Below are positions 14,777 through 59,521 of a stretch of DNA of 64,000 nucleotides, in pieces (the stretch's first letter is position 1; each line of letters opens with the position of its first letter). Source of the stretch: a virus; the IMG/VR virus record IMGVR_UViG_3300045988_151707, positions 32,001 to 96,000 of that record. One strand, 5' to 3'. Below the pieces are notes generated by a model. The model saw nothing but the letters and a program-made list of their open reading frames with translations, was not told the origin of the DNA and did not search any database. A program made the position numbers and the translations under genes.

Positions 14777-14779
14777 AGT

Positions 14780-15133: not shown

Positions 15134-15183
15134 TTCTATTGTCGCGTATTAAATGTTAATATATTTTAATGCAAAAGTTAATG

Positions 15184-15202
15184 AGCCGTGCTCCGCACGG
15201 CT
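15184..15202 (-). promoter_or_regulatory. GC-rich hairpin 3' of the VR (DGR target-recognition hairpin/cruciform candidate)
   Basis: AGCCGTGC-TCC-GCACGGCT, an 8-bp stem that ends 17 nt beyond the VR 3' end. Confidence 0.55.
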
Positions 15203-15210
15203 GAGATAAA

Positions 15211-45367: not shown

Positions 45368-46240
45368 TCACATTTCTATCTCGATGGCCGGATTCCATTC
45401 GTCCGGATCAGAAAAAGTGATTCCCGTATTTCCACTGAACAGACGGCAGATGGCGTTTGTGCACCGGTTCCTCAGAAGCGGAACGCCGGAAGCCTGTGCA
45501 CCGTAAAGCATTTTCCCGTCGGCTCCCAGAGCCTCTATTTTCAGCGTCACGTCAAATTCTTCCGACTCGGTAGGAGTGAAGGTAAACACGGAGAAATAAA
45601 GCCCGCTACGGCCCGCATACTCGTCGCCTATCTCCCAGGTAATCGCATAGTCGGATGCGGAATCTGCGTCACCGTTACCGGTAGTCACATCCAGCGTGCG
45701 AAGATGACCGCCTACCGTCATTCGTACCGATTTCACCGAGGCTGGAAACGCATCTTTCACGGTAATCATGGCACGGCTTACTACGCGCTTCATTTGCAGT
45801 TCCTGACTCGAAGCCATATTCTCGTCCACTTGAAGAGAAAAGTCCTGCCAGAAAGTCTCTGTTACTTTCTCAGGAGTATATTTCATGCCTTCCATACTTC
45901 CTCCGGTACTGCTGTGAGCCAGGAAGTACACATGATGCGCTCCATACTTCATGTTCAGTGTAAGGGGAGAAGGAAGCGAAACGGTGTCCGCCTGCATCTG
46001 CTCGCCGTCCATGTAATCCCAATAGGAGAGGGTAGTGGCCAGCTCGGCCAGCGTGCCGGCACGTGAATTATTCCACTGGTTGATGTCTCCCTGTCCGATT
46101 TCCATAAACACCGGAAGGAAAGACACCCTGCACGTTTTCTCACTCGTCTGCCCTATATCCGTCGGACGGACGATGTTTTCCTTGCTGCAAGACGCCATAA
46201 TCAGGATAGCAGCCATGCAAATGCTTTTCGACAAATTCAT
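45368..46240 (-). CDS. lipoprotein, possibly fimbrillin (Mfa2/FimB)-like (start at ATG 46240)
   Basis: Lipobox MNLSKSICMAAILIMASC. The beta-rich body with the KRVVSRAMITV pattern is reminiscent of Bacteroidales fimbrial subunits (weak). Confidence 0.4.
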   Translation of the reverse strand: MNLSKSICMAAILIMASCSKENIVRPTDIGQTSEKTCRVSFLPVFMEIGQGDINQWNNSRAGTLAELATTLSYWDYMDGEQMQADTVSLPSPLTLNMKYGAHHVYFLAHSSTGGSMEGMKYTPEKVTETFWQDFSLQVDENMASSQELQMKRVVSRAMITVKDAFPASVKSVRMTVGGHLRTLDVTTGNGDADSASDYAITWEIGDEYAGRSGLYFSVFTFTPTESEEFDVTLKIEALGADGKMLYGAQASGVPLLRNRCTNAICRLFSGNTGITFSDPDEWNPAIEIEM

Positions 46241-46320
46241 GTTGTTTAGTTTTAAGTTTATACCATAATTAACGCACGTCCGGAGTTTCGTTTCCGGTTT
46301 TGATGGATTTTTATTGTAAA

Positions 46321-46760
46321 GTTCGGAAAGTTTGCACATTTATATAGTTCGGAATCTTTGCACCTTTACACGAAATAATTTCCCTTACTGACGGAATCTT
46401 TTCACCTATTGACGGAATCATTGCACCTACATGCTTTTAAAAACCTAATAATCAATGATTTTCAGAATTTATATAATTATCTATATGTTATAATATAAAG
46501 AAACGATAGTTTCTTAAATAAGGGATAAAAGAAAAAATATATCGGTCTGCTTTTATTAATGATATTATGATATAAGATATATAGTAAAGCGTAATTTGCT
46601 ATAAAACAAATAGTTATATTAATAAAGGTGCAAACTTTCCGTTTTTAGGGGTAAACTTTCCGTCAATATGTACTAAGTTTCCGTGTGTATGGGTAAAGAT
46701 TCCGTCATATAGGGGAAAATTTCCGAACATATATAGATTAAAGGTGCAAACTTTCCGAAC
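46321..46760. repeat. iteron-type replication origin: 4 leftward and 6 rightward iterons flanking an AT-rich spacer
   Basis: Consensus GGTGCAAA(C/G)TTTCCG(N)(A)C. Right set at 46627, 46648, 46671, 46691, 46712 and 46743 (about 21-22-bp phasing). Left set, inverted, at 46321, 46347, 46389 and 46410. Confidence 0.75.
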
Positions 46761-46772
46761 TATTTTCATTCA

Positions 46773-46827
46773 ATATTTTCCGTTTTTGGAAAATATTGTC
46801 ATTTTATTTTCCGTTTTTGGAAAATAT
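46773..46827. promoter_or_regulatory. two copies of the TATTTTCCGTTTTTGGAAAATAT palindromic operator upstream of the XRE/rep operon
   Basis: Copies at 46773-46796 and 46805-46827, followed by a TATATTTG box at 46831-46838. Confidence 0.55.
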
Positions 46828-46855
46828 ATCTATATTTGTGCCAAATAACGAACCA

Positions 46856-47110
46856 ATGAAGATTTATTTAGAAGAAAGATTAAAAGAGTCAGGTATAAGC
46901 AAGGATGAACTGGCAAAGAGACTGGGTATTTCCAATTCAAGTCTGACAAAGAAATTAAACGGTCCGTCACGTACTAACCTGCAATTTCTGGAAAGTGTGG
47001 CCGATGCGTTGGGAATATCTGTTTTCTCTCTTATTGATGATGAAAAATACGTGAAGGTAGGTACATTCCAGTCCGATGGGAATACTTACGAAATACGAAA
47101 AATAAACTGA
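46856..47110 (+). CDS. XRE-family HTH regulator
   Basis: LKESGISKDELAKRLGISNSSLTKKLNG...LQFLESVADALGISVFSL fits the HTH_3 pattern. Start moved to ATG 46856, downstream of the -7 box. Confidence 0.7.
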   Translation: MKIYLEERLKESGISKDELAKRLGISNSSLTKKLNGPSRTNLQFLESVADALGISVFSLIDDEKYVKVGTFQSDGNTYEIRKIN

Positions 47111-47116
47111 TAGCCT

Positions 47117-48580
47117 ATGCGACGGAAGAAAAGCACCACCGAATCAAGCAACTCACTGATTAAAGAGCTTAGCTCAGTAGAGTTTATTAAACAACCCTAT
47201 CTGTATGCCATGGTAGGGGCAGATTTTTCACTCTACCAGCGAAGTATTATGATAGAAATCATGAAGTCCATGCAAGACCGCTTCAATGAATTTCTGAAAA
47301 ACAGACGTGCAGACGGACAAATGTCACTTTTCCCTGATGATCTGGACGACAATCAGATTCTCACATTCCGAATCAGCGCTTCCTCTCTTGGAGTAAGTCC
47401 TCGTGACTATATGTATCTTAGTGAGGCATGCGATAATCTGATGAAGATGAACTGTTCTTTTTACAGATATGATGAAGTGGGAAGACCTATTCGTACATAC
47501 GCACATCTGTTTTCTACGATTGAAATGCCGATGATTCCGGTTTCAGGCTCGAAAGAAAAAGAAAGGAGGATGAACTACGTGGAAGCGCGTATGGATGCAA
47601 AGGTCTTGAAAGAACTGTGCGATTTAGGTAACGGGAAAGGTTATCTTGACCACATTTACCGAATAGCCCGTATCTGCAAACGCAAACGTACACCAAGCAT
47701 TTATATTTATCTTTCCAGATGGAAAGACTTCCCAAAGAAATCGGTGGAATATGTGGAGCTCAAGAAATTCCTGGGAGTGATAACATTGGAAAATGTGGAG
47801 GTGAACGGGGTAGTTACTAAGACTTACGAAAAAGACCGATACCCGAAATTCAGTAAATTTTGTAAGGAAGTGATGGACCCGATACGTGAAGACCTCGACC
47901 GTATGGCCAGCGAAAATCAGGTGGACTTTACTTTTGATTATGAACCTGTATATAAGGGTTCAACGAAGAGAGGAAACCCTGACGAGATATTATTTAAAAT
48001 CAAGCTGAGTGAACTTGGGGAGGAAATGTCGCGTAAACGAAGACAGCAAAAACTTCCCGCAGATATTTGGGACTTGCTTCGCTCTGAATATAAACTGACG
48101 GAAACAGATGTGCGTATGCTGACCGATATGCTTCCTGACGAACTGATGAACGATTTCCGGGCCGAAGTGCTGGCACTTCGTGACCGAATGAACCGGTATA
48201 AGGTAAACAATCCGAAAAGTTATGTGGTGACTTCACTCAAGAATTTTATTATCCAGCACACTCCGGAGGCAAAAGAAACAAAAGAAGATAATAGGGTAGA
48301 GGAGAAGAAAACCGTCAAGCATAAAACAATAAGCGAAGAAGATAAAAGCCGATGGATGGCATTTATGGAACTTCTTCAAGGTTCTGTAAGTCCGGTTGAA
48401 TTTAGCACCTGGCTGTCGTCGCTTGAATTTGTTTCGCTTAATGGTGAGGAAGTGACACTATCTGTACCGGCTGCATACGTAGCGACTTATATTGACGAAA
48501 AGCTGAGTGCACCATTTAAACAAGCGCTTAATGCAGTGTATGGCGAAGATGTAAAACTACTTTATGAAGTAAGAAAATAA
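47117..48580 (+). CDS. rep: plasmid-type replication initiator (Rep_3-like N-terminal region) with a DnaA-domain-I-like C-terminus
   Basis: The FIKQPYLYAMVGADFSLYQRSIMIEIM pattern is typical of iteron Rep proteins. The C-terminus WMAFMELLQGSVSPVEFSTWLSSLEFVSLNGEEVTLSVPAAYVATYI matches the DnaA N-terminal domain pattern. Iterons lie upstream. Confidence 0.7.
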   Translation: MRRKKSTTESSNSLIKELSSVEFIKQPYLYAMVGADFSLYQRSIMIEIMKSMQDRFNEFLKNRRADGQMSLFPDDLDDNQILTFRISASSLGVSPRDYMYLSEACDNLMKMNCSFYRYDEVGRPIRTYAHLFSTIEMPMIPVSGSKEKERRMNYVEARMDAKVLKELCDLGNGKGYLDHIYRIARICKRKRTPSIYIYLSRWKDFPKKSVEYVELKKFLGVITLENVEVNGVVTKTYEKDRYPKFSKFCKEVMDPIREDLDRMASENQVDFTFDYEPVYKGSTKRGNPDEILFKIKLSELGEEMSRKRRQQKLPADIWDLLRSEYKLTETDVRMLTDMLPDELMNDFRAEVLALRDRMNRYKVNNPKSYVVTSLKNFIIQHTPEAKETKEDNRVEEKKTVKHKTISEEDKSRWMAFMELLQGSVSPVEFSTWLSSLEFVSLNGEEVTLSVPAAYVATYIDEKLSAPFKQALNAVYGEDVKLLYEVRK

Positions 48581-48585
48581 CGAAT

Positions 48586-48623
48586 AAATCCCGGAACGGA
48601 AAGCACCGTCCCGGGATTTTATT
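48586..48623. terminator. bidirectional terminator
   Basis: AAATCCCGG ... CCGGGATTT stem followed by a T-rich tract (TTATTTT). Confidence 0.65.
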
Positions 48624-48624
48624 T

Positions 48625-49128
48625 TCACTCCACATAGTCCTTCGTGTCGACGCAAAGCTCTACTTTTTGTACATCGGTCAGTTCAAGAAAAACTGCATAC
48701 CAGTTGTTCAGGAAAGGGCCGTAGGTAGAATAGTGAAGCTCCTCCGTTTCAAGGTTTATGTTCCGGAAAATCTTCCGTTTCTCCTGCTGCTCACGTAGCC
48801 AGGCAAGAAACTTCTGCATGTGCATCTTCGCTTCTTGAATGGCTTCGTATGACTGCTGCTTGTCGGTCGGCTTCATATTATCCGTTTTAACGAGGAAATA
48901 AATCACGTGCATAGGTTTGTCCATACCGCCTTTAATCGTCCCGTCCTGGGCAAATTCGTAGCCCACACAAGGCGATTTCACGTCGGGCAGCTTGCTCATG
49001 AACGAGGGAATAGCTACAATGTTGTCGAAAAGGAAAAACCGTTTGTTCTTTCCGGTTTCTCCGGGCGTATGAAGCATGGGCTTGTACTTTGTGGCCCATT
49101 CTTCGATGATTTCTTTTAATTCTGTCAT
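48625..49128 (-). CDS. hypothetical protein
   Basis: 167-aa ORF. Confidence 0.5.
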   Translation of the reverse strand: MTELKEIIEEWATKYKPMLHTPGETGKNKRFFLFDNIVAIPSFMSKLPDVKSPCVGYEFAQDGTIKGGMDKPMHVIYFLVKTDNMKPTDKQQSYEAIQEAKMHMQKFLAWLREQQEKRKIFRNINLETEELHYSTYGPFLNNWYAVFLELTDVQKVELCVDTKDYVE

Positions 49129-49130
49129 AA

Positions 49131-49421
49131 TTAAAATTTTGTTGGTTTTCTTAATTCTTTATCAAATGCCATTATAAATCCGATAAAAGTAAAAGACAGT
49201 AATGAAAGCCATATTCCCAGTTTACCTAATTCAGCATAAAGTAGCATGACTATCATGGCTGCTGTGATAATCCCTCCCAGAAGATTAGTCAGTTCCGATT
49301 CTTTTTGGAACATGAGGAAGACACCTAGCAGAAGGACAGCCAGTTCTATTCTTATCTGCTGGAGAAAATACATACCTACCAGCAAGAACGTGTTCGACAA
49401 TATTCTGATTATCGTTTTCAT
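49131..49421 (-). CDS. small three-TM membrane protein
   Basis: 96 aa, hydrophobic throughout. Confidence 0.5.
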   Translation of the reverse strand: MKTIIRILSNTFLLVGMYFLQQIRIELAVLLLGVFLMFQKESELTNLLGGIITAAMIVMLLYAELGKLGIWLSLLSFTFIGFIMAFDKELRKPTKF

Positions 49422-49954
49422 TTCATCCGGAATTTATAATCACTTCTTTTAAACTCGTCCTGGAAAGAAACCAGTACGCCGTTTTCGATGAAGTCCTGAT
49501 AATAGGAAGACACGAGCACTTGCAGTCGCTTTAGTTGATAACGCACTTCCATGGCGATTACAGGTCGTGACTGACGGTCTCCTTCTTCCTTCCATTTTTT
49601 ATACAATTTCTTGTAATGGGCAAATTCGTCTCTATCCACATCTTCAATGGGCTGTCCGGCACCGACACCCATATCTACGAAATACAGGTAATAGTTGAAG
49701 AAGAAGGAAATCTTCTTTGTGTCACCTCCGGCACCGTTGAATATCTTGGCATACATGCGCCGGTAAGCCTGTCCGGTACTCCGCTTGGCGGCCGGTGTAT
49801 TTCGGTACCCGATGTACGGGCCGGGGTATCCTCCCGGCCATACATGCTGTGTCTCGAAGTTGGTCTGAAGCTGCCGGATCATGTTGTTTGCCCAGCGCGT
49901 CAAGTCCAGGAACTCATCCTTTACCGCCTGACTGATGGTTTTCTGTTCTGACAT
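49418..49954 (-). CDS. hypothetical protein, possibly HK97-gp10-like tail-completion fold
   Basis: TGQAYRRMYAKI...YYLYFVDMGVGAG resembles the gp10 family Y..fvE.G pattern (weak). Confidence 0.35.
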   Translation of the reverse strand: MSEQKTISQAVKDEFLDLTRWANNMIRQLQTNFETQHVWPGGYPGPYIGYRNTPAAKRSTGQAYRRMYAKIFNGAGGDTKKISFFFNYYLYFVDMGVGAGQPIEDVDRDEFAHYKKLYKKWKEEGDRQSRPVIAMEVRYQLKRLQVLVSSYYQDFIENGVLVSFQDEFKRSDYKFRMK

Positions 49955-49957
49955 GGC

Positions 49958-50119
49958 TTATACATAGTTTAATGGATTTTCAAAAATATCTTTTATCATT
50001 TCCTGTTTGCATCCTTTGAACCATTTGAAAGGTTCTTTGCAGTAACTGATACCGATTGTTCCGGTTGTAGCATAGAACGAAACTTTGGCGTAACCGTTTT
50101 TATTTGATTTCTTTTTCAT
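49958..50119 (-). CDS. small basic protein (53 aa, below the ORF-track cutoff)
   Basis: MKKKSNKNGYAKVSFYATTGTIGISYCKEPFKWFKGCKQEM... fills an otherwise empty 200-bp gap. Confidence 0.3.
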   Translation of the reverse strand: MKKKSNKNGYAKVSFYATTGTIGISYCKEPFKWFKGCKQEMIKDIFENPLNYV

Positions 50120-50126
50120 ACATTCA

Positions 50127-50152
50127 TACTTTTATGTTTTTATGTAAAAGTA
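50127..50152. repeat. isolated inverted pair of the centromere motif (TACTTTTA ... TAAAAGTA)
   Basis: 17 nt (TACTTTTATGTTTTTAT) identical to 43661-43677 in the parA-upstream array. Confidence 0.5.
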
Positions 50153-50157
50153 GTTTT

Positions 50158-50781
50158 CTAAATTACTCCCTTTTCTTTTAGTTTTTTGTTCACTTCTTCA
50201 TACACAGAGTAAAACATATATTTTTTCCCTCCGCACCTGGTACCTCTTCTTAAAGAAGCAAATAACGCTGACAGTCCAACTCCGTTCTTTCTCGCACATT
50301 CAGCTACCGAATAATACACTTCTCCTGTTTCTAATGCAATTACTTTTTTGCAGATTCCAGGAGGTGATTTGCGGTGTGGGCCAAAATTACTATCAGGGTT
50401 GTTTATAAGCCTTAAACAGTTTTCTCTCGAAAGCTGTCTTCGTCTTTCCTGACGTTCTTTTGACCATTTATGGAAACCATTGTTTAATTTATGTCCCTTA
50501 CGGAAATGGCCTGTTCCTATTTCATGGTTAGGATCAGGAGTAAACTTCAGTTCATCCATTCTCTGCTCCTCATATATTTTCCTGAAGTCTTCTTCATAAT
50601 ACCATCTGAATCCTTTACATGCAGTTCCTCTCCGACAACTGAAACTAATGGAATGCCGACTTACACCGGATTTTATTGCTGCGTCTCTGATAAAGTCAAA
50701 ATATCCGGCAACTGTACCGTCTGGATTTACCGCAACTACCGGGTGATTGCTTCCTATTTTATATTGACTGTTCGATGGCAT
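50158..50781 (-). CDS. NUMOD1-like repeat DNA-binding protein (homing-endonuclease-like, no nuclease motif seen)
   Basis: Two modules, YFDFIRDAAIKSGVSRHSISFSCRRGTACKGFRWYY and YYSVAECARKNGVGLSALFASLRRGTRCGGKKYMFY. Confidence 0.5.
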   Translation of the reverse strand: MPSNSQYKIGSNHPVVAVNPDGTVAGYFDFIRDAAIKSGVSRHSISFSCRRGTACKGFRWYYEEDFRKIYEEQRMDELKFTPDPNHEIGTGHFRKGHKLNNGFHKWSKERQERRRQLSRENCLRLINNPDSNFGPHRKSPPGICKKVIALETGEVYYSVAECARKNGVGLSALFASLRRGTRCGGKKYMFYSVYEEVNKKLKEKGVI

Positions 50782-50793
50782 ATTTTTGTCATA

Positions 50794-50827
50794 ATGTTTA
50801 ATTTGACAAATTTGTCAAATTAAACAT
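50794..50827. promoter_or_regulatory. perfect 34-bp palindrome (ATGTTTAATTTGACAAA|TTTGTCAAATTAAACAT)
   Basis: 17+17 perfect inverted repeat, 13 nt upstream of the 50781 start codon. Confidence 0.6.
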
Positions 50828-50873
50828 AATTCAGTTTATATCAAATCTGTAAACATGAATACCAATATGCGTA

Positions 50874-51830
50874 TCATTCCTTGTCACTGATTAATGCGTT
50901 TCCGCAGGTGATTCTATCGGAGTCTTCTTCTTTTGACGGGACAAATACGATGACATCCCATCCTTCTTCAAGTAACGGCTGCTCGAACTTGCGGTACACA
51001 TTGTAATCGGAATATCCGGTTACTTCAAAACCGTTTTCTATGGCCGAGCTGGTTTCATGAATCGGCGTAATTTTTACGATAAACTTCTTTTTGTCAAACA
51101 GCGCAGAAAGTTCCTTCGCATCAAGAATGGTCTGTGCCGTAACAGGGAAATTCAGGGTGTATTTCCTTCCTTTCGGCATAGGAAGTTCTTTGGCCAATGC
51201 GGAAATTTCCTGAAGCGAAAGGCTCTTTCCGTCAAACAATTCGTTTCGCTGTGCTTCGTCGGTAGAATTGATGGAAAACTGCAGTCCGGCTTCTCCGTGG
51301 TAGAACTCGTTCTTGATGTCGCACCAGGTAAGAATAAAATCTTTCAGCCGTTTGTTGGCTCTTGGCAGCATGGTCGATACAACCGGATGAACGGTGTCTG
51401 CCATTAGTCCGCATCTCTTTACGAGACTTTTCAGCTGCAGAGTAAAGGAAGGCACGTTTTCATTCCAGGTAGGCTCTCCCATCCGGGCGAAATGTACGTT
51501 GAATCTTTCTGTGTGGAATACATATTCATTTTCAATGATGGTTCTAATCTGATAGGCCAGTTCTTCCAGCGAAGCGTTACCATGGAATCCGAAACGGGGT
51601 ACGTCGCAGAACTTACATTTCATCGGGCATCCTTTCTGCGTAGAGATGGTTGCCACCCATTTCTTGCTCAAGTCAACTTCTGTGTTGGCCACACCGTTTA
51701 TTTCTTTGGTCAGGCCCAAGAAATCGGCCTTGATATTGTTTTCTTTTCCGTAGTCTCCCACGGTAAGAAATTCCAGCTTCTTTTCTGTATCAACATAAAT
51801 CTTTCCTGTGTGTGTCTTGATTGTTTTCAT
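50874..51830 (-). CDS. radical SAM enzyme of the RlmN/Cfr methyltransferase type
   Basis: Motifs: TQKGCPMKCKFC (CxxxCxxC), GFHGNASLEELAYQI, ARMGEPTWNENV, LQFSINSTDEAQRNEL and C-terminal DRITCGNAL (like AACGQL). Collinear with E. coli RlmN as I remember it. Confidence 0.65.
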   Translation of the reverse strand: MKTIKTHTGKIYVDTEKKLEFLTVGDYGKENNIKADFLGLTKEINGVANTEVDLSKKWVATISTQKGCPMKCKFCDVPRFGFHGNASLEELAYQIRTIIENEYVFHTERFNVHFARMGEPTWNENVPSFTLQLKSLVKRCGLMADTVHPVVSTMLPRANKRLKDFILTWCDIKNEFYHGEAGLQFSINSTDEAQRNELFDGKSLSLQEISALAKELPMPKGRKYTLNFPVTAQTILDAKELSALFDKKKFIVKITPIHETSSAIENGFEVTGYSDYNVYRKFEQPLLEEGWDVIVFVPSKEEDSDRITCGNALISDKE

Positions 51831-51878
51831 TTTTCTTCTTTTTGGGGTTTTGGTTTGGTTTATTTGTAAAATTTGAAA

Positions 51879-53594
51879 TCAAAAAATAGATAATTGCGCA
51901 TCTTCGCACGAATTATCGACAAACATTTTCTTGAAGATGTAATAAAGAACATCCACCACAATGCTGTTGCCGGCCATTTTGTATTGCTGCGTCTTGCTGA
52001 TTCCTGACTTCTGAATATTATCAATATCTTTTTCGGAAACCCCCATAAGGCGGAAGCATTCGCGAGGTGTGAGTTTACGGATTCGGTAATTTGCAAAGTA
52101 TTCAATTATTTTAGGTTGTAAATTACCTCCTGACATGGTGTTAATATTTGGACTTATACCTATCGGGTTGTACACTCTACCTCTTTGAGGGTTCTTAAAA
52201 CCTTTCTCATCAGCCAAATTACCTACTTGAATAATTTTAGATTCTACTACGAAATTATTATCCTGCCATCGGCTTGACGTTATAGCCGAACAATTATCTA
52301 ATATTGCACCTTTATTAAATCCGCGCGGAGATTGAAAGATTTTTGCTTCTATTCCCTCATAAAGACATGGAGGCTCTCCGCCTGCTGTCAACGTAGGAGA
52401 AACTTTGCCGTTATCTTGTACCCTACCTCTTCTCGTTAAGCTTTCAGGATAAGAAGCATCGAATACCCCACCTGGCGGGATTTCTATATATCCTTTTTTA
52501 GTTGCTTGTTTTATAATTAGTGCTTGATTTATAGGTTCTGAAATAAAACTTAAACAAGAAGAATCCACAGTCGTCTTAATTGTTCCACATATATCAGATA
52601 CTGTTTGATTATAAGCATCAAGAAATTGAACTTCATGACCACTGATTTTTCCACTATCAACCAATGATTGTACTCTTTTATTCCCATATTTTTTTTCTTT
52701 TGAGCTAAAACCTGTTGGCACTGATTCCAAAATTCTTGGACCTTCACCTTTGTTTGTTGTCAAAGTAGGGCACAAGCCGTTTGAATCGAACACGTTTCCA
52801 TTCATTCCGTGACCTGAAGGGTTTGTGTTTCCTACTACATAAACGTAATTATCGCAATCCCTTGAACCAGCATTAGTCAAAATACTCGATGCAATCACAT
52901 CACCCATTGTAGGCTCAAACTTAAATCCGTTCCCTTTAGCCTTGTTCTTCTCGTTTCTTGCAAGAAATGTCTTTACAATCTTCTCGCTCAAATAAAAACT
53001 TTCATCCACATCTTTTTCAAGAACATCTTTCAGCCTTTTCTCCAGAGTGAAAGGTTTCGGAAAATGAAACGAAGCCTCGCCCAATATCGACACCATAAAG
53101 ACACGTTCCCTGTTTTGCGGTACTCCGAAGTCCTTTGCATTGAGAACTTTCGTATAATTGCTGTAGCCCTGTCCTTCAAGAAATCTGAGCCATTCTTTCA
53201 GGTACGGGGTAAACTTCTTCGATACGAGGTTCTTCACGTTCTCCATAAGCAGATACTTCGGACGTTTCGCCTCTATAGCCTTACGGCATTCCCAAAGCAG
53301 GCTGCTTCGTGTACCGCTACCCTCTGCAAGCCCTTTCTGCTGTCCGGCTGTGCTTATATCGGTACAAGGAAATGAGTATGTCAGAAAATCGAAGTCAGGA
53401 ACACTGCTCCAGTCTATCTTTGATATGTCGCCATAATTAGGAGTGTCTCCATGTACGGCCATATATGCCTGAATGGCGTACTTGTCAATTTCACTTATTC
53501 CAACAACCTCAAAGTCTATTCCCAGTCTGCTTAAAGCCATAGACTGCGAACCATATCCTGCAAATGCTTCAAAGACTCGTATTTTATTCTTCAT
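51879..53594 (-). CDS. DNA (cytosine-5)-methyltransferase with an unusually long target-recognition region
   Basis: Motifs: I FEAFAGYGS, IV SFPCTDIS, VI ENVKNL, VIII QNRERVF, IX/X TPRECFRLMG and GNSIVV. About 300 aa lie between VIII and IX. Confidence 0.9.
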   Translation of the reverse strand: MKNKIRVFEAFAGYGSQSMALSRLGIDFEVVGISEIDKYAIQAYMAVHGDTPNYGDISKIDWSSVPDFDFLTYSFPCTDISTAGQQKGLAEGSGTRSSLLWECRKAIEAKRPKYLLMENVKNLVSKKFTPYLKEWLRFLEGQGYSNYTKVLNAKDFGVPQNRERVFMVSILGEASFHFPKPFTLEKRLKDVLEKDVDESFYLSEKIVKTFLARNEKNKAKGNGFKFEPTMGDVIASSILTNAGSRDCDNYVYVVGNTNPSGHGMNGNVFDSNGLCPTLTTNKGEGPRILESVPTGFSSKEKKYGNKRVQSLVDSGKISGHEVQFLDAYNQTVSDICGTIKTTVDSSCLSFISEPINQALIIKQATKKGYIEIPPGGVFDASYPESLTRRGRVQDNGKVSPTLTAGGEPPCLYEGIEAKIFQSPRGFNKGAILDNCSAITSSRWQDNNFVVESKIIQVGNLADEKGFKNPQRGRVYNPIGISPNINTMSGGNLQPKIIEYFANYRIRKLTPRECFRLMGVSEKDIDNIQKSGISKTQQYKMAGNSIVVDVLYYIFKKMFVDNSCEDAQLSIF

Positions 53595-53609
53595 CCTTAT
53601 TGTGTTTGG

Positions 53610-54260
53610 TTATTTGTATAACTTAAAATGTGAGTGTGTACCCTTCGGACGCACATTTCGGTTAAACTTTGTATGGTACTTCTTACCGTCATTTCGGGGT
53701 ACGTGACGGTTCTGACCGACAATACTGAAATAGAACGGCACATGGCGTGAGGTGTGGCGGTTTCGGTTGGCTATCTCATGCTGGCTCTCAATCCTATCCC
53801 AATTGCTTCCGTTTACATTGCAGGGACTTTGTACTAGAATGAGTTGTCTGAGATGTTCCACAGCATCTGAGTTCAAAGTCATTTCTCCGCAATTATCCAT
53901 TCCACGAGAGTAACTTGTTGGGGATTCTTCCACTATATTTTTGAGAGGATACATTCTAATTACAGCTTCAGAAGCTGTAAATGCTGCATCTCGCAAAAGC
54001 TTTGCAGACTTCCTAAACTCGTTTATTGCATCAACAAATCTCTCGTAAAATATTTGCTTATTGATAAGCTCTATAATAGCTTCCTTTATTTTTTCTTCCG
54101 GAAGTTTACTGTAAATAGAAATAGTATGAATTGCTTTCAAAACTTCGGCTTCATCAAGTTCTGGATGTTTCTCTTCCTTATAGGTGAGCATACCTTCCTT
54201 ATACTTTCCTCCTAATCTTTCACGAAGTTTGTCAAATAATTCTTTATCACTGTTCCACAT
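53610..54260 (-). CDS. hypothetical protein with a basic His-rich C-terminus
   Basis: ORF 53610-54326. Start probably at MWNSDKE (54260). Confidence 0.45.
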   Translation of the reverse strand: MWNSDKELFDKLRERLGGKYKEGMLTYKEEKHPELDEAEVLKAIHTISIYSKLPEEKIKEAIIELINKQIFYERFVDAINEFRKSAKLLRDAAFTASEAVIRMYPLKNIVEESPTSYSRGMDNCGEMTLNSDAVEHLRQLILVQSPCNVNGSNWDRIESQHEIANRNRHTSRHVPFYFSIVGQNRHVPRNDGKKYHTKFNRNVRPKGTHSHFKLYK

Positions 54261-54975
54261 AGGCTCCGATTTTAAGCGATTTCTCCATTTCATCCTGAAG
54301 CTTATCAAGTAGGCCACATTCTCCATGGCAGAAGAAACGGAACTCCTTCTGCTGCTTTTCGCAGAAGAATTTCACTTGATCTATCTCTTTGTGATACGGG
54401 CAAAGCAGACGAATTTTTTGCAAGGCTACATCTACTGCAATCATGGCTCCCATCTTGTATCCCTTCCGGAATGGCTTATGAAGATCCTTTACTTCACGAC
54501 GGGCCTGTGCGCATTCTGTCTTTGCCTTTACCATGTGGTGATAGAATTTGTCGGCCAGTCCCAGACCTTCTTCTCTGATTTTTTCTTTGTGCAGTCTTGG
54601 AGCTTTCTTGATAACTTCCGGACGCGAGCGGTGCATGTAAATCAGACCGGCAAACGATGGTACTTCGTCGGGAGAAATCATTCCTTCCGGCACAGCATAG
54701 TAGAAATAGTTCGGTTTGTTAGATGTATCTTCGTCGGCCATGAAATTAAACTTCTGCAATTTATGCTTCTGGTCGTTATGGAAGTCGGCACGCGAAATCT
54801 TGATTTCTATCTCGTACCAGTAACCGGAGTTCGTGAGGATCAACACATCGCTCTCCCACCCGAACACGTACATGTTGCGCAGAAAGAACTTTGGTGAGCT
54901 CATGAAGCTGCGAAGCCCGTCCTGTATGCTTGTTTCCGTATATTCAAATCTTTCCAGCTTTCCCATATTACCCAC
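54247..54975 (-). CDS. PD-(D/E)xK nuclease-fold protein (MmcB-like)
   Basis: GWESDVLILTNSGYWYEIEIKISRADF gives a D...E-x-K arrangement. Confidence 0.5.
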   Translation of the reverse strand: MGNMGKLERFEYTETSIQDGLRSFMSSPKFFLRNMYVFGWESDVLILTNSGYWYEIEIKISRADFHNDQKHKLQKFNFMADEDTSNKPNYFYYAVPEGMISPDEVPSFAGLIYMHRSRPEVIKKAPRLHKEKIREEGLGLADKFYHHMVKAKTECAQARREVKDLHKPFRKGYKMGAMIAVDVALQKIRLLCPYHKEIDQVKFFCEKQQKEFRFFCHGECGLLDKLQDEMEKSLKIGAYVEQ

Positions 54976-55243
54976 CTATTTCACCTTTCAAGCGCTTAAT
55001 GGCAAGGTTTCTTGCCTTAATGGTTTCTTCCTGCTCTCGGACTTTTGTTTTGAGCGATGAAACCCGGCGTTGCAATTTCTCCACCGTGGGCGTGTTATTC
55101 CGCTCATAGTTTAGCTCTGCCTGAAGCTTTTCCACCTTCTTCTCCAGTTCCGCCGTGCGTGCCTGTTCGCGCCGGTAGTCCCGGCAGAGGTACTTAAAAA
55201 GTATCTCTACCGGAATGTCCAGTGCCTTATTCCACTTTTCCAT
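54968..55243 (-). CDS. small coiled-coil protein
   Basis: 91 aa with heptad-rich sequence. Confidence 0.5.
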   Translation of the reverse strand: MEKWNKALDIPVEILFKYLCRDYRREQARTAELEKKVEKLQAELNYERNNTPTVEKLQRRVSSLKTKVREQEETIKARNLAIKRLKGEIGG

Positions 55244-55958
55244 CGTCTTCCTTCTTTTTGATGTACCAGTCGAACTCTTCCAGCGGCTTGTCTACCACAG
55301 AAATGTAGTCTCCATCACGTTTCAGAACGCCTTTGTTGATAAGTTGCCGAATAAGCTTCAGACCGCTTCCGTAACCGTAATGAATATTCAGCACGTTTAT
55401 CGGGTCAGTATTGATACATTTTTTTCCGCCCTTTTCTGTGATTCCTAAGTTGTGGCATACACGAGCGGCCGCAGACAATTTCTCATAGTCGTATTCCTCG
55501 AACTCAGGCTGTACTTCAGCTTCGGCCTGATACGGATATACGTCCATGATGGCGGTCTCTGCGATGGATGCAATGACATAATCGGCCATCGTACCTTTCA
55601 TTCCTTCGTCCAGCTTCTTCACCGCATCTCGAAGGTCGGCAGCCTGTACCAGAATGTTGGTGGCTGTCTTCTTTTCTGCACCGCTTTTCTCGTCGATGGT
55701 GATAAAGTACAGCTTGCATTTGTACCACTTGTCGGCAGCTTCCTCGTCGGACGGGAATATCTCGCTGTAGTTGGCCCGCTTGATGTCGATCACTGTGAAC
55801 TCTCCTGTAATAAACGGCGTGACTTCTTCAATGAGACGTGCTTCGGCTTCGGTGAAACTCAGGGCATCTACCAGATAGGGCTCTGTCACTTTCTTGTTCA
55901 TCCCGTTTTCCGCTACCTTTTCGTAGCGGATTTTTCCTTCAAACCATGTGTGCATCAT
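55227..55958 (-). CDS. DUF4494-like protein
   Basis: The N-terminus HTWFEGKIRYEKVAENGMNKKVTEPYLVDALSFTEAEARLIEEVTPFITGEFTVIDIKRA matches the Bacteroidales DUF4494 family as I remember it. Confidence 0.55.
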   Translation of the reverse strand: MMHTWFEGKIRYEKVAENGMNKKVTEPYLVDALSFTEAEARLIEEVTPFITGEFTVIDIKRANYSEIFPSDEEAADKWYKCKLYFITIDEKSGAEKKTATNILVQAADLRDAVKKLDEGMKGTMADYVIASIAETAIMDVYPYQAEAEVQPEFEEYDYEKLSAAARVCHNLGITEKGGKKCINTDPINVLNIHYGYGSGLKLIRQLINKGVLKRDGDYISVVDKPLEEFDWYIKKKEDDGKVE

Positions 55959-56185
55959 AATTTGTCCTCCATTATTTTTTCGCGTTGTGCAATCATGGCA
56001 TCGGCAAAATCATAGGCCATCTTAGCCAACCATTCCTCGTCGTATGCTATCACTGATTTATATTCCAAACCAAATAATTTTTTAATCTTATTTTTAAAAG
56101 TCATGTATTCTGATACATTTTTCTGCATCAATACCTTCATCGCTTCCATAGCGATGTGGTCTCTACTGATATTACTTTCTGCCAT
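55955..56185 (-). CDS. hypothetical small protein
   Basis: 76-aa ORF. Confidence 0.45.
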   Translation of the reverse strand: MAESNISRDHIAMEAMKVLMQKNVSEYMTFKNKIKKLFGLEYKSVIAYDEEWLAKMAYDFADAMIAQREKIMEDKL

Positions 56186-56200
56186 AGTTATTTTATTGAA

Positions 56201-56731
56201 TTAGATAATAATTGTCATTATTGCGTAAGTAGCTAAATCGAGAAAAGCATTTTCCACTTTTTCTGATTGTGATTCTGCTTCTTCTTTATCCAGCAAAAAA
56301 TATATTTCTTTAATCTTTGATTTCAGAATTATTCCAGCTATCGGTGTACCTCGTAGAGCAATCATACGATAAAACTGAACATTAGCCTGATATATTTCTC
56401 TTTTACATCTTTCTTCTATCTCTTTTTCTACAATCATCTTTTCATGATGATATTTTTTGTAAAAAAACAGCAGGAAGTATATGGAGTGATTGTAAATTTT
56501 AATCATAGAGGCACCAATATCACCATCTTCCTCAAAAGAATTACATTCTTCATAAAGAAACTTCAGGAAGTTTGGCATACCAGGGTGAACTACTTCCTTC
56601 GGGAATCTTATTTCATCGGATTCCATCTTTTTTTTAAAAGATATTTCCCATGAATTATCGGAACATTCCCATACTCCACAAAAAGGATTCTGGTAACTTG
56701 TATGACCTTGATAAACAAAACCTTTTCCCAT
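56201..56731 (-). CDS. divergent DUF1599-like protein
   Basis: The C-terminal FLDLATYAIMTIII parallels the DUF1599 C-terminal helix of the next gene. Confidence 0.4.
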   Translation of the reverse strand: MGKGFVYQGHTSYQNPFCGVWECSDNSWEISFKKKMESDEIRFPKEVVHPGMPNFLKFLYEECNSFEEDGDIGASMIKIYNHSIYFLLFFYKKYHHEKMIVEKEIEERCKREIYQANVQFYRMIALRGTPIAGIILKSKIKEIYFLLDKEEAESQSEKVENAFLDLATYAIMTIII

Positions 56732-56734
56732 ATT

Positions 56735-57805
56735 TTACTTTTGTTTCCTGATCCAAATAATTGTCATCACGCAGTAGTTGGCCAGGTCCAGATAAGTATC
56801 TTCCAGCCTTTCGTCCTTCACCTGCCCTTCACCATTATTTTTAATCAGGGAATTTATTCTTCGAATTTTGTCACCGATTCGGATTTTGGCTACCAGGAGT
56901 CCGTCTTCGTCCATTGACTTTTCAAAGGCGTTTCCATAGTCGGCGTTCTTTTTTCGGTAAGTGTAAAGCTGTTCTTGACTGATTTCGGCCATAGAAAGCG
57001 TAACTTCCGCATAGTGTTGATATGCAGCACGGGCTATGCTTGTAATATGAAGCAAGCCTTCTATCCGGTCTGAATAGGTAATATCATCCTTGAAACATGG
57101 CTTGAACAAATTTCCTATTCTGATATGATAAAGATTAGGATCTCCACCTGCCATTTTATCGTAAGGTACCAGCTCGTGCAGCACCTCTTCAAACTTCTCA
57201 ACCATTTCATCCATAGTTTCTTCTACAGGATTCTCCGGTTGTTTCTCTCCTTCTTCGTTATCATCAGGTATATTTACCGGTTCAGGCAGTTCTTCCAAAA
57301 AATCTTCCGGAACGTCGACTATGTTCCGACCCCACTGACCTACCTCATACCAGAATACAGGTTCACCATCTTTACGAATTTGTCTTGTTCCAAGCACTTT
57401 GTAGATTGCAACCTGAGCATTTGAGATATGTTTTAAATCAAATTCCCCCATCTGATACGTCAGGGTCTCATTTGCCAATTTAAGCGAGTCGCAGTCTTTC
57501 AGCTTTACTACCTGCCCGACACTGAATTTTGATACGTTAATTTTACCTTCCATATATGTTGCTATTTTAGTTCCTGATGGCTGTTCTTTGCTTATGATCT
57601 TTCTGAAATCAAGCTGTGGAACTTTAGTTCTATCTCGGATGTTTAAAATATCCTGTTCTTTTTTCTCAATTAATGGCCAGAAACCTCCGAATAGCTCCAT
57701 CATATTTCCCGCACCCGATTCCATATCAAGGAAATCGCATAGTATACTTTTATTTATTTTAAGCGGATTTATTTGTTTTTTATTCCTTTTTTTCTTCTTT
57801 TCCAT
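56735..57805 (-). CDS. protein with a C-terminal DUF1599 domain (nucleotide-modification-associated, MazG-like helical domain)
   Basis: KKNADYGNAFEKSMDEDGLLVAKIRIGDKIRRINSLIKN...RLEDTYLDLANYCVMTIIW fits the DUF1599 pattern (DYG.AW...l.d.i.iK..Ri..l......E...d...Dl.NY.i.al). Start taken at MEKKKK. Confidence 0.55.
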   Translation of the reverse strand: MEKKKKRNKKQINPLKINKSILCDFLDMESGAGNMMELFGGFWPLIEKKEQDILNIRDRTKVPQLDFRKIISKEQPSGTKIATYMEGKINVSKFSVGQVVKLKDCDSLKLANETLTYQMGEFDLKHISNAQVAIYKVLGTRQIRKDGEPVFWYEVGQWGRNIVDVPEDFLEELPEPVNIPDDNEEGEKQPENPVEETMDEMVEKFEEVLHELVPYDKMAGGDPNLYHIRIGNLFKPCFKDDITYSDRIEGLLHITSIARAAYQHYAEVTLSMAEISQEQLYTYRKKNADYGNAFEKSMDEDGLLVAKIRIGDKIRRINSLIKNNGEGQVKDERLEDTYLDLANYCVMTIIWIRKQK

Positions 57806-59495: not shown

Positions 59496-59521
59496 ATCGC
59501 TAAATGATTAATCTGTTCGTA

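What the first reader, a model, noticed from the sequence alone, without database searches (positions are those of the whole stretch)
50874..51830. Phage-borne RlmN/Cfr-like radical SAM methyltransferase apparently lacking the resolving cysteine
**Collinearity**
- The 318-aa protein is collinear with RlmN/Cfr through the cluster motif (GCPMKCKFC), MGEP, the STxxP and SINS(T) segments, and the C-terminal methyl-carrier cysteine (ITCGNAL against AACGQL).

**Differences from RlmN**
- It lacks the N-terminal accessory domain.
- In my by-memory alignment, LCVSSQVGC aligns with ATISTQKGC. That places a Thr where RlmN has Cys118, the residue that resolves the covalent enzyme-substrate intermediate.

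**Context and possible roles**
- It lies directly upstream of a giant C5-methyltransferase, within an early operon.
- It could methylate adenine C2/C8 in DNA, in a host tRNA or rRNA (Cfr-like resistance chemistry), or act by covalent trapping.
Basis: partly seen in the sequence, partly recalled or inferred. Interest (0 to 1): 0.7.

Follow-up and report, generated by a model that had tools for sequence, protein, structure and literature searches.

The report
Phage RlmN-like enzyme tied to NAD salvage
A gut phage carries a stripped-down relative of the ribosome-methylating enzyme RlmN that lacks one catalytic cysteine, and its close bacterial relatives sit inside NAD vitamin-salvage operons, so it probably acts on an NAD-related small molecule and not on the ribosome or DNA.

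Summary
A 318-aa ORF (50874-51830, minus strand) has the C68x3C72x2C75 cluster motif. Its sequence profile and predicted fold match RlmN/Cfr. It keeps the C-terminal methyl-carrier cysteine (Cys309). It has Thr61 where RlmN has the resolving Cys118, and it lacks RlmN's N-terminal domain.

The proposed functions are not supported. The protein scores far below the RlmN/Cfr family cut-offs. It belongs to a large uncharacterised family (phrog_24834). Pairing with the C5-methyltransferase is not conserved, even in the same phage group.

Orthologues 66-72% identical lie inside NAD salvage operons (PncA, PncB, NadE, NMNAT-like, CinA, NrtR, NAD kinase). More distant relatives sit beside phage NAD-rebuilding genes. 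Others are fused or adjacent to isochorismatase-type hydrolases and a flavoprotein, or fused to a transporter S-component plus MTA/SAH nucleosidase.

My best reading is a single-cysteine RlmN-fold radical SAM enzyme that acts on an NAD-pathway small molecule, carried by gut phages as an auxiliary gene. The reaction itself is unknown. A queuine-lyase lead was tested and rejected.

The parts
50874..51830 (-). 318-aa radical SAM protein of the RlmN/Cfr fold (family phrog_24834), the subject of the finding
   Evidence: ORF. PHROG hit E 4.8e-106 over the full length. Family profile against RlmN/Cfr in PDB, E 1e-19. AlphaFold2 model pLDDT 93.2. The nine best Foldseek PDB matches are RlmN or RlmN-type chains (E 1e-9 to 4e-8, TM 0.57-0.64).
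51606..51629 (-). Codons for C68-P-M-K-C72-K-F-C75, the CX3CX2C motif that binds the [4Fe-4S] cluster which cleaves SAM
   Evidence: Sequence. The three Cys are present in 117-119 of 120 family representatives. Aligned to RlmN C125/C129/C132.
51648..51650 (-). Codon for Thr61, the position of the resolving Cys118 of RlmN
   Evidence: HMMER alignments. Family column is T52/I21/M11/N9, with Cys in only 4 of 120.
51471..51482 (-). Codons for M117-G-E-P120, the GEP motif shared with RlmN/Cfr ('mGEP'). In RlmN this motif contacts SAM (established knowledge).
   Evidence: Aligned to RlmN 'mGmGEP'. G118, E119 and P120 are invariant or nearly invariant in the family.
50904..50906 (-). Codon for Cys309 in the C-terminal TCGN loop, counterpart of the methyl-carrying Cys355 of RlmN
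   Evidence: Profile alignment places the family's CGQ on RlmN's 'aaCGQL'. Cys is present in 101 of 120 representatives.
51666..51830 (-). Residues 1-55, a beta-rich N-terminal segment specific to this subfamily. It takes the place of RlmN's helical N-terminal domain and is shared with the bacterial orthologues and the transporter fusions.
   Evidence: Model strands at 2-5, 9-14 and 19-25. Conserved in the QueT-like fusion proteins at 43-48% identity over the full length. More distant relatives match only from about residue 50.

Best explanation
**What it is**
The gene encodes a stand-alone radical SAM enzyme. It descends from the RlmN/Cfr (class A methyltransferase) fold but belongs to a separate, uncharacterised family.

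**Shown**
- It has the SAM-cleaving CX3CX2C cluster site.
- It has the RlmN-type core.
- It has one conserved C-terminal cysteine, Cys309, at the position of RlmN's methyl carrier.
- It has no second (resolving) cysteine.
- It has no RlmN-type N-terminal domain.

**Inferred from gene context**
- The family acts on a small molecule of the NAD (pyridine nucleotide) pathway, not on rRNA, tRNA or DNA.
- The phage copy is a single-gene auxiliary metabolic function that supports or protects the NAD supply of the infected gut bacterium.

**Most likely mechanism (inferred)**
1. The reduced cluster cleaves SAM to a 5'-deoxyadenosyl radical.
2. Cys309, on its flexible C-terminal loop, acts either as an RlmN-style methyl carrier or as a hydrogen-atom or thiyl relay. 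This functionalises an electron-poor ring carbon of an adenine- or pyridine-containing NAD-pathway metabolite.
3. Release of the product cannot use RlmN's intramolecular Cys118-Cys355 disulfide. It must be done differently, for example by an external thiol or a partner protein.

The exact substrate and product are not known.
For: **Fold and motifs**.

**NAD context, in lineages that differ in their other genes**
- L011 (rSAM 72% identical to the window protein) has eight contiguous same-strand genes: isochorismatase/PncA, PncB, NadE, rSAM, NMNAT-like, CinA/PncC, NrtR, NAD kinase.
- L012 and L066 carry a similar set plus a NUDIX gene.
- Six Alphaproteobacteria MAG loci carry PncB, PncA-like, rSAM, NadE, DUF5662, NrtR; L033 lacks the NadE hit.
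- L053: rSAM, NMNAT-like, NrtR, then, two ORFs on, an ADP-ribosylglycohydrolase.
- L065 has an NMNAT-like gene adjacent.
- IMG/VR contig L108: NAMPT-like, NadE, a 98-aa ORF, rSAM.
- Phage-like contig L097 (46-47% identity): NAPRTase, rSAM, PTH2, NUDIX, NAD kinase, Prs, then RNA ligase after a 63-aa ORF.
- Vibrio phage 496E54-1: ribose-phosphate diphosphokinase, nicotinate-PRTase-family gene, rSAM. This gene pair is the one described for phage NARP1 (abstracts listed).
- L100: an NMNAT-like gene overlaps the rSAM stop codon.
- A SIR2 gene lies next to P0164.

**Distant clade (13 loci from bacteria and archaea)**
- The TrxR-like flavoprotein gene lies directly upstream of the rSAM in all 13 loci; an isochorismatase-type Cys-hydrolase was found in 10 (upstream in 9, fused to the rSAM in L069). 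The flavoprotein lacks the CxxC motif.
- The parts are fused in P0200, P0239, P0245 and P0237.

**Pointers to a small-molecule substrate**
- Firmicutes fusions join a QueT-like ECF S-component, the rSAM domain and a bona fide MTA/SAH nucleosidase (228 bits against a cut-off of 169).
- The family is acidic, with median pI 5.9.
Against: - All functional evidence comes from gene neighbourhood and fusion. No chemistry was tested.
- The window itself holds no NAD gene.
- Only 1 of 80 close viral loci has NAD genes within 10 kb. The phage copies are orphans, so their role is extrapolated from 66-72% identical bacterial orthologues.
- Every canonical NAD salvage step in those operons already has an enzyme, so no obvious gap exists for this protein to fill.
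- The S-component's best Pfam match is QueT, a queuosine-precursor transporter (37-40 bits against a cut-off of 33.7). That points to 7-deazapurines and not to niacin.
- Isochorismatases of the distant clade are generic Cys-hydrolases, not clear nicotinamidases.
- Several distant phage homologues sit among tRNA genes.
- Four phage relatives keep both RlmN cysteines and match RlmN far better. An RNA substrate therefore remains possible for parts of the wider group.
Confidence: 0.45

Rival explanations
1. It is an RNA adenine C2/C8 methyltransferase, a minimal RlmN/Cfr. It acts on host or phage tRNA or on 23S rRNA, and a residue or thiol other than Cys118 resolves the covalent intermediate.
For: - The closest solved structures and sequences are all RlmN/Cfr.
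- The methyl-carrier Cys is conserved.
- Distant phage homologues lie within or next to tRNA gene clusters in Stenotrophomonas and Pectobacterium phages.
- Some phage relatives keep both cysteines and match RlmN at E 1e-18.
Against: - It has no N-terminal domain and no Cys118.
- It scores far below the family cut-offs.
- The window holds no tRNA genes.
- Close homologues are fused to a membrane transporter S-component or embedded in NAD operons.
- The protein is acidic.
- From established knowledge, C118A RlmN stalls as a covalent RNA adduct. PDB entries 5hr6 and 4pl1 are that variant.
Confidence: 0.2
2. It works on a 7-deazapurine (queuosine precursor). It would be a non-orthologous queuine lyase or a related enzyme feeding preQ1 to tRNA or to phage DNA modification.
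For: - Fusions to a QueT-family S-component plus a nucleosidase mirror the C. difficile queK-qrtT-queL operon (PMC11477304).
- FolE lies within 5 kb in Aeromonas phage Ahp1, and a QueE-like gene lies within 5 kb in Vibrio phage D479.
- A missing QueL substitute has been suggested for streptococci (PMC12632869).
Against: - The real queuine lyase (PDB 6p78) is a different radical SAM subgroup. It ranks 21 in Foldseek (TM 0.41) and is not hit by the family profile at E<=1.
- No preQ1 riboswitch was found in the window or upstream of the fusion genes.
- No TGT/DpdA appeared among the window ORFs scanned.
- The nucleosidase domain is an ordinary MTA/SAH nucleosidase.
Confidence: 0.08
3. It is a DNA base-modifying enzyme that works with the phage's DNA methyltransferases and other modification genes of the early operon.
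For: - In the window it lies between a C5-methyltransferase and an HNH-like gene.
- The same operon has two DUF1599 'nucleotide modification associated' proteins, a PAPS-reductase-like protein and an N6/N4 methyltransferase.
- N6 or C5 DNA methyltransferases are recurrent immediate neighbours in several phage backgrounds.
Against: - The methyltransferase partner changes or disappears within the same phage group.
- The other recurrent neighbours (HNH/NUMOD4, YopX, repressor genes) mark a general accessory region.
- Orthologues 66-72% identical are chromosomal genes in NAD operons with no DNA-modification genes.
Confidence: 0.07
4. It is a single-turnover or trapping protein. Without a resolving cysteine, it becomes covalently linked to its target and inactivates a host RNA.
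For: From established knowledge, loss of Cys118 in RlmN gives exactly this covalent adduct. Thr61 occupies that position.
Against: - The single-cysteine state is the norm for a large family found in bacteria, archaea and phages.
- That family includes housekeeping-type operons and fusions to an MTA/SAH nucleosidase that removes SAM by-products. This argues for multiple turnovers.
Confidence: 0.03

Closest known systems
RlmN (E. coli; PDB 3rf9, 3rfa, 5hr6) and Cfr (PDB 9p0p): class A radical SAM methyltransferases for adenine C2/C8 of A2503 in 23S rRNA; RlmN also modifies A37 of tRNA
   Same: - Same core fold. The nine best Foldseek matches are RlmN or RlmN-type chains (E 1e-9 to 4e-8, TM 0.57-0.64).
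- The family profile aligns over the whole core at E 1e-19.
- Shared features: the CX3CX2C motif, the GEP motif, and the C-terminal CG(Q/N) cysteine at the methyl-carrier position.
   Different: - No N-terminal domain.
- Thr61 in place of the resolving Cys118.
- 14-17% identity in structural alignment.
- Scores 35.6 bits against the 290-bit cut-off of TIGR00048, and 25-27 bits against 530-550 for the Cfr models.
- Acidic protein.
- Gene context is NAD salvage, transporter or hydrolase fusions and phage accessory regions, not the ribosome.
Two-cysteine minimal RlmN-like proteins of phages: Vibrio phage 496E54-1, Salmonella phage Arash, Stenotrophomonas phages BUCTxx99 and ANB28, Aeromonas phage Ahp1
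   Same: - Same size (about 310 aa).
- No N-terminal RlmN domain.
- Same family by tblastn (25-31% identity).
- The Vibrio copy lies next to NAD-rebuilding genes.
   Different: - They keep 'TVMC(V/I)STQ', with Cys at the Cys118 position, and 'GGGCGQLW'.
- They match RlmN/Cfr at E 1e-18 as single sequences over their full length. The window protein matches only 75 residues at E about 5e-4.
QueL queuine lyase (PDB 6p78, Clostridium spiroforme; C. difficile CD1684)
   Same: It is a radical SAM enzyme of gut bacteria that acts on a salvaged small molecule. Its operon partners, a transporter S-component and a nucleosidase, resemble the domains fused to this family in Firmicutes.
   Different: It is not homologous beyond the general radical SAM barrel: Foldseek rank 21, E 1e-3, TM 0.41, and no profile hit. 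It is 230 aa long and has no RlmN-type C-terminal cysteine loop.
Phage NAD+ reconstitution pathways NARP1, NARP2 and NARP3
   Same: These are phage-borne genes that maintain NAD+. Family members lie directly beside NARP1-type genes (Prs-like plus NAPRTase-family) in Vibrio phages, and beside NAPRTase, NAD kinase and Prs in L097.
   Different: None of the described pathways includes a radical SAM enzyme. Those papers hold no occurrence of the term. The window phage carries none of the NARP genes.

Membership tests
RlmN/Cfr (class A radical SAM methyltransferases; TIGR00048, NF000424, TIGR04432) | Whole-protein score above the curated family cut-off | tested here: not met
   35.6 bits against 290 (TIGR00048), 26.6 against 530 (NF000424) and 25.1 against 550 (TIGR04432). 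Only residues 52-132 match.
RlmN/Cfr (class A radical SAM methyltransferases) | CX3CX2C motif for the SAM-cleaving [4Fe-4S] cluster | tested here: met
   C68, C72 and C75 align to RlmN C125, C129 and C132. They are present in 117-119 of 120 family representatives.
RlmN/Cfr (class A radical SAM methyltransferases) | Methyl-carrier cysteine in the C-terminal loop (RlmN Cys355, Cfr Cys338) | tested here: met
   Cys309 in TCGN. The family's CGQ aligns with RlmN's 'aaCGQL'. Cys is present in 101 of 120 representatives. Whether it is methylated cannot be tested here.
RlmN/Cfr (class A radical SAM methyltransferases) | Resolving cysteine seven residues before the first cluster cysteine (RlmN Cys118, Cfr Cys105) | tested here: not met
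   Thr61 occupies that position. Cys occurs in only 4 of 120 representatives. No other non-cluster Cys is conserved in the family apart from Cys309.
RlmN/Cfr (class A radical SAM methyltransferases) | N-terminal accessory domain preceding the radical SAM core | tested here: not met
   Query residue 59 aligns with RlmN residue 116. The family profile starts at RlmN residues 84-100. Residues 1-55 are a beta-rich segment in the model.
RlmN/Cfr (class A radical SAM methyltransferases) | Methylation of adenine C2 or C8 in 23S rRNA A2503 or tRNA A37 | not testable with these tools
   This needs enzymology or nucleoside mass spectrometry.
Radical SAM superfamily (Pfam PF04055) | Pfam gathering score; partial TIM-barrel fold with a cluster loop | tested here: inconclusive
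   26.6 bits, just under the 29.5-bit gathering score. The motif is present, and the fold matches radical SAM structures throughout the Foldseek list. By fold and motif it is a member.
phrog_24834 (phage protein family of unknown function) | Full-length profile match | tested here: met
   E 4.8e-106, residues 2-317 against profile positions 5-325 of 336.
QueL queuine lyase | Homology to the solved enzyme (PDB 6p78) | tested here: not met
   The family profile against PDB sequences gives no 6p78 hit at E<=1. Foldseek places it at rank 21, E 9.6e-4, TM 0.41.
QueL queuine lyase | Operon with a queuosine hydrolase and a Q-precursor transporter under a preQ1 riboswitch | tested here: not met
   QueT-like fusions exist. 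No preQ1 riboswitch was found at Rfam gathering scores in the window or in 7 fusion loci. No motif was seen by eye upstream of the fusion genes.
Phage NAD+ reconstitution pathways (NARP1, NARP2, NARP3) | Presence of the pathway's defining gene pair (Adps+Namat, Nampt+Nmnat, or PnuC+NadR) | tested here: not met
   tblastn of 26 NAD-pathway reference proteins finds nothing in the window. Only related loci carry such genes.

The most novel reading that the evidence does not exclude
This family carries out radical chemistry on the NAD pool that has not been described. One example would be C-methylation of the adenine or pyridine ring of NAD or a precursor by a one-cysteine variant of the RlmN mechanism. 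Another would be conversion of an unrecognised gut pyridine compound into a usable NAD precursor. Hundreds of gut phages would then carry it as a one-gene way to keep or protect NAD during infection, for instance against NAD-depleting defence systems.
Probability: 0.15. Interest if true: 0.9.

Novelty: new variant of a known kind. Interest (0 to 1): 0.62.

Why it matters
Class A radical SAM methyltransferases are known only as RlmN and Cfr. Both are RNA enzymes, and their two-cysteine mechanism is a textbook case.

This is a large, conserved relative with three unusual properties:
- It lacks the resolving cysteine.
- It sits inside NAD salvage operons of gut bacteria.
- It has spread at 69-100% identity through hundreds of gut phage genomes.

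That combination implies one of two things. Either there is a new way of completing the RlmN reaction, or the fold has a different reaction on a small molecule.

It also points to an unrecognised step in NAD metabolism. NAD supply is known to be contested between phages and bacterial defences. The hypothesis can be tested directly with one recombinant protein and a short list of substrates.

In practical terms, database labels such as '23S rRNA (adenine2503-C2)-methyltransferase' on these proteins are probably wrong. They should not be read as antibiotic-resistance (Cfr-like) genes in phages.

Tried and rejected
1. **Queuine lyase (QueL).** This lead came from the QueT fusions. It was rejected when the solved QueL (6p78) proved to be an unrelated radical SAM subgroup. 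No preQ1 riboswitch was found either. I could not obtain the C. difficile QueL sequence or the 2019 PNAS paper.
2. **Coupling to the C5-methyltransferase.** Rejected because the neighbour is not conserved.
3. **tRNA link in the window.** The window has no tRNA genes.
4. **TGT/DpdA or other 7-deazaguanine genes in the window.** None appeared among the 30 window ORFs scanned with Pfam. Smaller ORFs were not scanned.
5. **NAD genes in the window.** None were found by tblastn.
6. **Literature.** Searches for a phage RlmN-like enzyme, or for a radical SAM enzyme in NAD salvage, found nothing relevant.
7. **Similarity to GenBank phages.** No nucleotide match for 46000-60000.
8. **First attempt to scan genomes with a 13-sequence alignment.** It failed for lack of a conserved stretch. 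A 4-sequence alignment worked.
9. **SPFH/band-7 neighbours.** Seen in three distant phage lineages. Not pursued and not found near close relatives.
10. Columns were shifted by one residue. This was corrected, and only figures are used.
Full report
**Observation**

The stated coordinates hold a 318-aa ORF on the minus strand, 50874-51830. The plus-strand translation is broken by stops. The protein has:
- GC68PMKC72KFC75
- RMGEP (117-120)
- STMLP
- SINST
- a C-terminal RITC309GNAL

A phmmer search against PDB sequences finds only RlmN with any significance (E about 5e-4), and only over residues 59-134. That alignment puts 'ATISTQKGC' on RlmN 'LCVSSQVGC', so Thr61 lies opposite Cys118.

Pfam gives only the generic Radical_SAM model, just under threshold (26.6 against 29.5 bits). 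NCBIfam's best hit is TIGR00048 RlmN at 35.6 bits against a cut-off of 290, and the Cfr models score 25-27 bits against 530-550. PHROGs gives a full-length match to phrog_24834, a family of unknown function (E 4.8e-106).

**Relationship to RlmN/Cfr**

- An exhaustive HMMER search of 1.84 billion representatives found 715 proteins at E<=1e-3. I aligned 34 diverse full-length members (A1).
- The profile of that alignment matches RlmN and Cfr in PDB at E 1e-19 to 2.5e-18 over the whole core (profile 23-298 = RlmN 100-362). The family's C-terminal CG(Q/N) falls on RlmN's 'aaCGQL'.
- The AlphaFold2 model is confident (pLDDT 93.2, pTM 0.92).
- Its nine best PDB matches are all RlmN or RlmN-type chains (E 1e-9 to 4e-8, TM 0.57-0.64, 14-17% identity). 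Next come generic radical SAM enzymes such as LipA and BioB, at E 5e-5 or weaker.
- Only 58 residues precede the position aligned with RlmN residue 116. RlmN's N-terminal domain therefore has no counterpart.

Column counts over 120 representatives below 80% identity:
- The cluster cysteines are present in 117-119.
- Cys309 is present in 101.
- The Cys118 column reads T52, I21, M11, N9, and Cys in only 4.
- No other non-cluster cysteine is conserved across the family.

**The wider group is heterogeneous**

- The four representatives with Cys at the Cys118 column are phage proteins: Vibrio 496E54-1, Salmonella Arash, Stenotrophomonas BUCTxx99 and Aeromonas Ahp1.
- They read 'TVMC(V/I)STQ' and end in 'GGGCGQLW' (BUCTxx99 reads 'TVICCSTQ').
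- The Vibrio protein, as a single sequence, matches RlmN/Cfr at E 1e-18 to 1e-16 over its full length. These are much closer to true RlmN.
- Other phage relatives are short and lack the C-terminal cysteine: Vibrio D479, Moorella MTATph1, Pectobacterium Wc4, Yersinia P778 and Kehishuvirus tikkala.
- The window protein belongs to the one-cysteine majority.

**The neighbouring methyltransferase**

- Both genes are on the minus strand, so the rSAM gene lies downstream of the 571-aa C5-methyltransferase at 51879-53594 (PF00145, with a ~260-aa variable insert).
- IMG/VR locus L120 is 100% identical to the window protein. It also shares the window's downstream genes, so it is presumably the same phage.
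- Twelve further loci of the same phage group carry rSAM proteins 95-97% identical. In them the upstream slot holds a methyltransferase only 25-29% identical to the window's, or none at all.
- Across 79 genome loci and the other viral loci, the rSAM gene (65-86% identical) sits among genes unrelated to the window's neighbours.
- Bacteroides phage Versailles (53% identical) has no adjacent methyltransferase.
- The recurrent, diverse phage neighbours are N6 and C5 DNA methyltransferases, HNH/NUMOD4 endonucleases, YopX and repressor-type genes. That is the accessory region of temperate phages.
- I conclude that the adjacency reflects location in a cargo region, not a shared pathway.

**A lead that failed: queuine lyase**

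- Some representatives are fusions of a QueT-family ECF S-component, this rSAM domain and a PNP_UDP_1 domain: P0128 and P0133, with P0132 lacking the last domain.
- The rSAM domains are 43-48% identical to the window protein over its full length.
- This architecture resembles the C. difficile queK-qrtT-queL operon for queuine salvage (PMC11130926, PMC11477304).
- However, the solved queuine lyase (PDB 6p78) ranks only 21 in the fold search (TM 0.41) and is not hit by the family profile.
- No preQ1 riboswitch is present.
- The C-terminal domain is an ordinary MTA/SAH nucleosidase (228 bits against a cut-off of 169). From established knowledge, that enzyme removes the SAH and 5'-deoxyadenosine that inhibit radical SAM enzymes.
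- The family is not QueL.
- The fusions still show that close relatives are tethered to a small-molecule importer, which is hard to reconcile with an RNA or DNA substrate.

**What the contexts do show: NAD**

I clustered the neighbours of all fetched loci and annotated them.

*Bacterial operons*
- L011 (rSAM 72% identical to the window protein) has eight contiguous same-strand genes. In order they are isochorismatase/PncA, PncB, NadE, rSAM, NMNAT-like cytidylyltransferase-family protein, CinA/PncC, NrtR and NAD kinase.
- L012 and L066 carry a similar set plus a NUDIX gene.
- Six Alphaproteobacteria MAG loci carry PncB, PncA-like, rSAM, NadE, DUF5662, NrtR; L033 lacks the NadE hit.
- L053 has rSAM, NMNAT-like, NrtR and, two ORFs further on, an ADP-ribosylglycohydrolase.
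- L065 has an adjacent NMNAT-like gene.

*Viral and phage-like contigs*
- Viral contig L108 has NAMPT-like, NadE, a small ORF, then rSAM.
- Phage-like contig L097 has NAPRTase, rSAM, PTH2, NUDIX, NAD kinase, Prs, then RNA ligase after a 63-aa ORF.
- In Vibrio phage 496E54-1 the two-cysteine relative directly follows a ribose-phosphate diphosphokinase and a nicotinate-PRTase-family gene. That is the gene pair described for the phage NAD+ reconstitution pathway NARP1 (abstracts listed).

*The distant clade*
- This clade (30-35% identical) comprises 13 loci from Elusimicrobia, Chloroflexota, Zixibacteria, Thermoplasmata, a Heimdallarchaeon and others.
- The TrxR-like flavoprotein gene lies directly upstream of the rSAM in all 13 loci. 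An isochorismatase-type Cys-hydrolase was found in 10 of them: upstream of the flavoprotein in 9, fused to the rSAM in L069.
- The parts are fused in P0200, P0239, P0245 and P0237.
- The flavoprotein lacks the CxxC redox disulfide. It looks like an electron donor and not a disulfide reductase.

*Overall*
- 32 of 184 sequences searched (183 loci plus the window) have at least one NAD-related gene near the rSAM gene. They fall into roughly ten unrelated backgrounds.

**Limits**

- The window has no NAD gene.
- Only one of the 80 close viral loci does.
- The operons already contain every canonical salvage enzyme, so the step performed by this protein is not obvious.
- The S-component's best match is QueT.
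- The distant clade's hydrolases are generic.
- Some distant phage homologues sit among tRNA genes.
- No paper in the library describes a radical SAM enzyme in NAD salvage or in NARP1, NARP2 or NARP3.

**Mechanism**

*Shown*
- A SAM-cleaving cluster site.
- The RlmN core.
- One conserved cysteine at the methyl-carrier position.
- No resolving cysteine.

*From established knowledge of RlmN/Cfr*
- Cys355 is methylated by one SAM.
- A 5'-deoxyadenosyl radical from a second SAM abstracts a hydrogen from that methyl group.
- The resulting methylene radical adds to adenine C2.
- Cys118 releases the adduct. C118A enzymes stay cross-linked to RNA, and PDB entries 4pl1 and 5hr6 are that variant.

*Inferred*
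- This family cannot use that release step.
- One possibility is that Cys309 carries a methyl group and the adduct is resolved in trans, by a small thiol or a partner.
- The other is that Cys309 serves as a hydrogen-atom or thiyl relay in a different radical reaction.
- In either case the substrate would be an electron-poor ring carbon of an NAD-pathway metabolite.
- The acidic pI (6.05; family median 5.9) is weak supporting evidence against a large RNA substrate.

**Verdict**

- The protein should not be filed as RlmN or Cfr, because two defining features were tested and not met.
- It is a new variant of a known kind. It has a specific, testable and so far undescribed link to NAD metabolism, and a wide distribution in gut phages.

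Noticed in passing
window 13304-16629 (minus strand): A complete diversity-generating retroelement. The reverse transcriptase ORF is 13304-14776 (RVT_1). A 131-nt template repeat lies at 14571-14701 and a variable repeat at 15215-15345. All 16 mismatches fall on adenines of the template. The variable repeat is at the C-terminal end of the 472-aa ORF 15211-16629.
   Followed up: yes
window 51879-53594 (minus strand): This 571-aa C5 cytosine methyltransferase has its Pfam match split into residues 6-229 and a C-terminal piece around 493-561. About 260 residues of unmatched variable region lie between them, possibly several target-recognition domains. Relatives of the phage carry an unrelated methyltransferase in this slot.
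   Followed up: partly
window 50794-50827: A 34-nt perfect palindrome (ATGTTTAATTTGACAAATTTGTCAAATTAAACAT) lies in the 92-nt gap between the rSAM gene and the next gene (HNH-like, 50158-50781). It could be an operator or an RNA hairpin. It was reported by the terminator scan.
   Followed up: no
window 56201-57940 and 60027-60875 (minus strand): Two adjacent proteins carry DUF1599 ('nucleotide modification associated domain 1'), one of 176 aa and one of 401 aa. The 176-aa protein is assigned only by a weak match (E 2.5e-4) to phrog_1485, the family of the 401-aa protein. A PAPS-reductase-domain protein is in the same early operon, together with DUF4494, SSB, an N6/N4 methyltransferase and an Rv2179c-like exonuclease. 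This may be a DNA-modification module unrelated to the rSAM gene.
   Followed up: partly
window 48586-48619 (minus strand): A strong terminator-like hairpin (14 pairs, 8 G-C) lies right after the 167-aa ORF 48625-49128. It probably ends the long minus-strand operon that contains the rSAM gene. That operon converges on the DnaA_N-containing gene at 47117-48580 on the plus strand.
   Followed up: no
loci L069-L081 (for example L075 4293-6840, L079 4354-6843): A tight gene cassette occurs in environmental bacteria and archaea, including a Heimdallarchaeon chromosome. It consists of an isochorismatase-type Cys-hydrolase, a TrxR-like flavoprotein without CxxC, and the RlmN-like rSAM. The flavoprotein gene lies directly upstream of the rSAM in all 13 loci, and the hydrolase was found in 10. 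In some proteins the parts are fused.
   Followed up: partly
loci L002-L009 and L058 (for example L003 5212-7659): Firmicutes MAGs carry three-domain proteins of 815-937 aa. The domains are a QueT-like ECF S-component, the RlmN-like rSAM and an MTA/SAH nucleosidase. A membrane importer is thus joined to a radical SAM enzyme and to the enzyme that clears its by-products.
   Followed up: partly
L087 5407-7741; L090 4881-9839; L082 1-6864: SPFH/band-7 (prohibitin-like) genes lie within a few kb of distant family members in three settings: a crAss-like phage (Kehishuvirus tikkala), Stenotrophomonas phages and a 108-kb phage-like contig. In Stenotrophomonas phage BUCTxx99 the rSAM gene itself is labelled 'prohibitin family protein', probably an annotation error.
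   Followed up: no
P0002, P0046, P0063 and others; L085 5881-6840: Public annotations call family members '23S rRNA (adenine2503-C2)-methyltransferase' or 'ribosomal RNA large subunit methyltransferase N'. The scores and the missing features found here do not justify those names.
   Followed up: yes
loci L010-L060: The same protein, at 65-83% identity, appears in MAGs assigned to very different phyla: Alphaproteobacteria, Clostridia, Bacilli, Bacteroides, Akkermansia, Treponema, Methanobrevibacter and Woesearchaeota. This suggests frequent horizontal transfer, phage contigs binned into MAGs, or both.
   Followed up: partly
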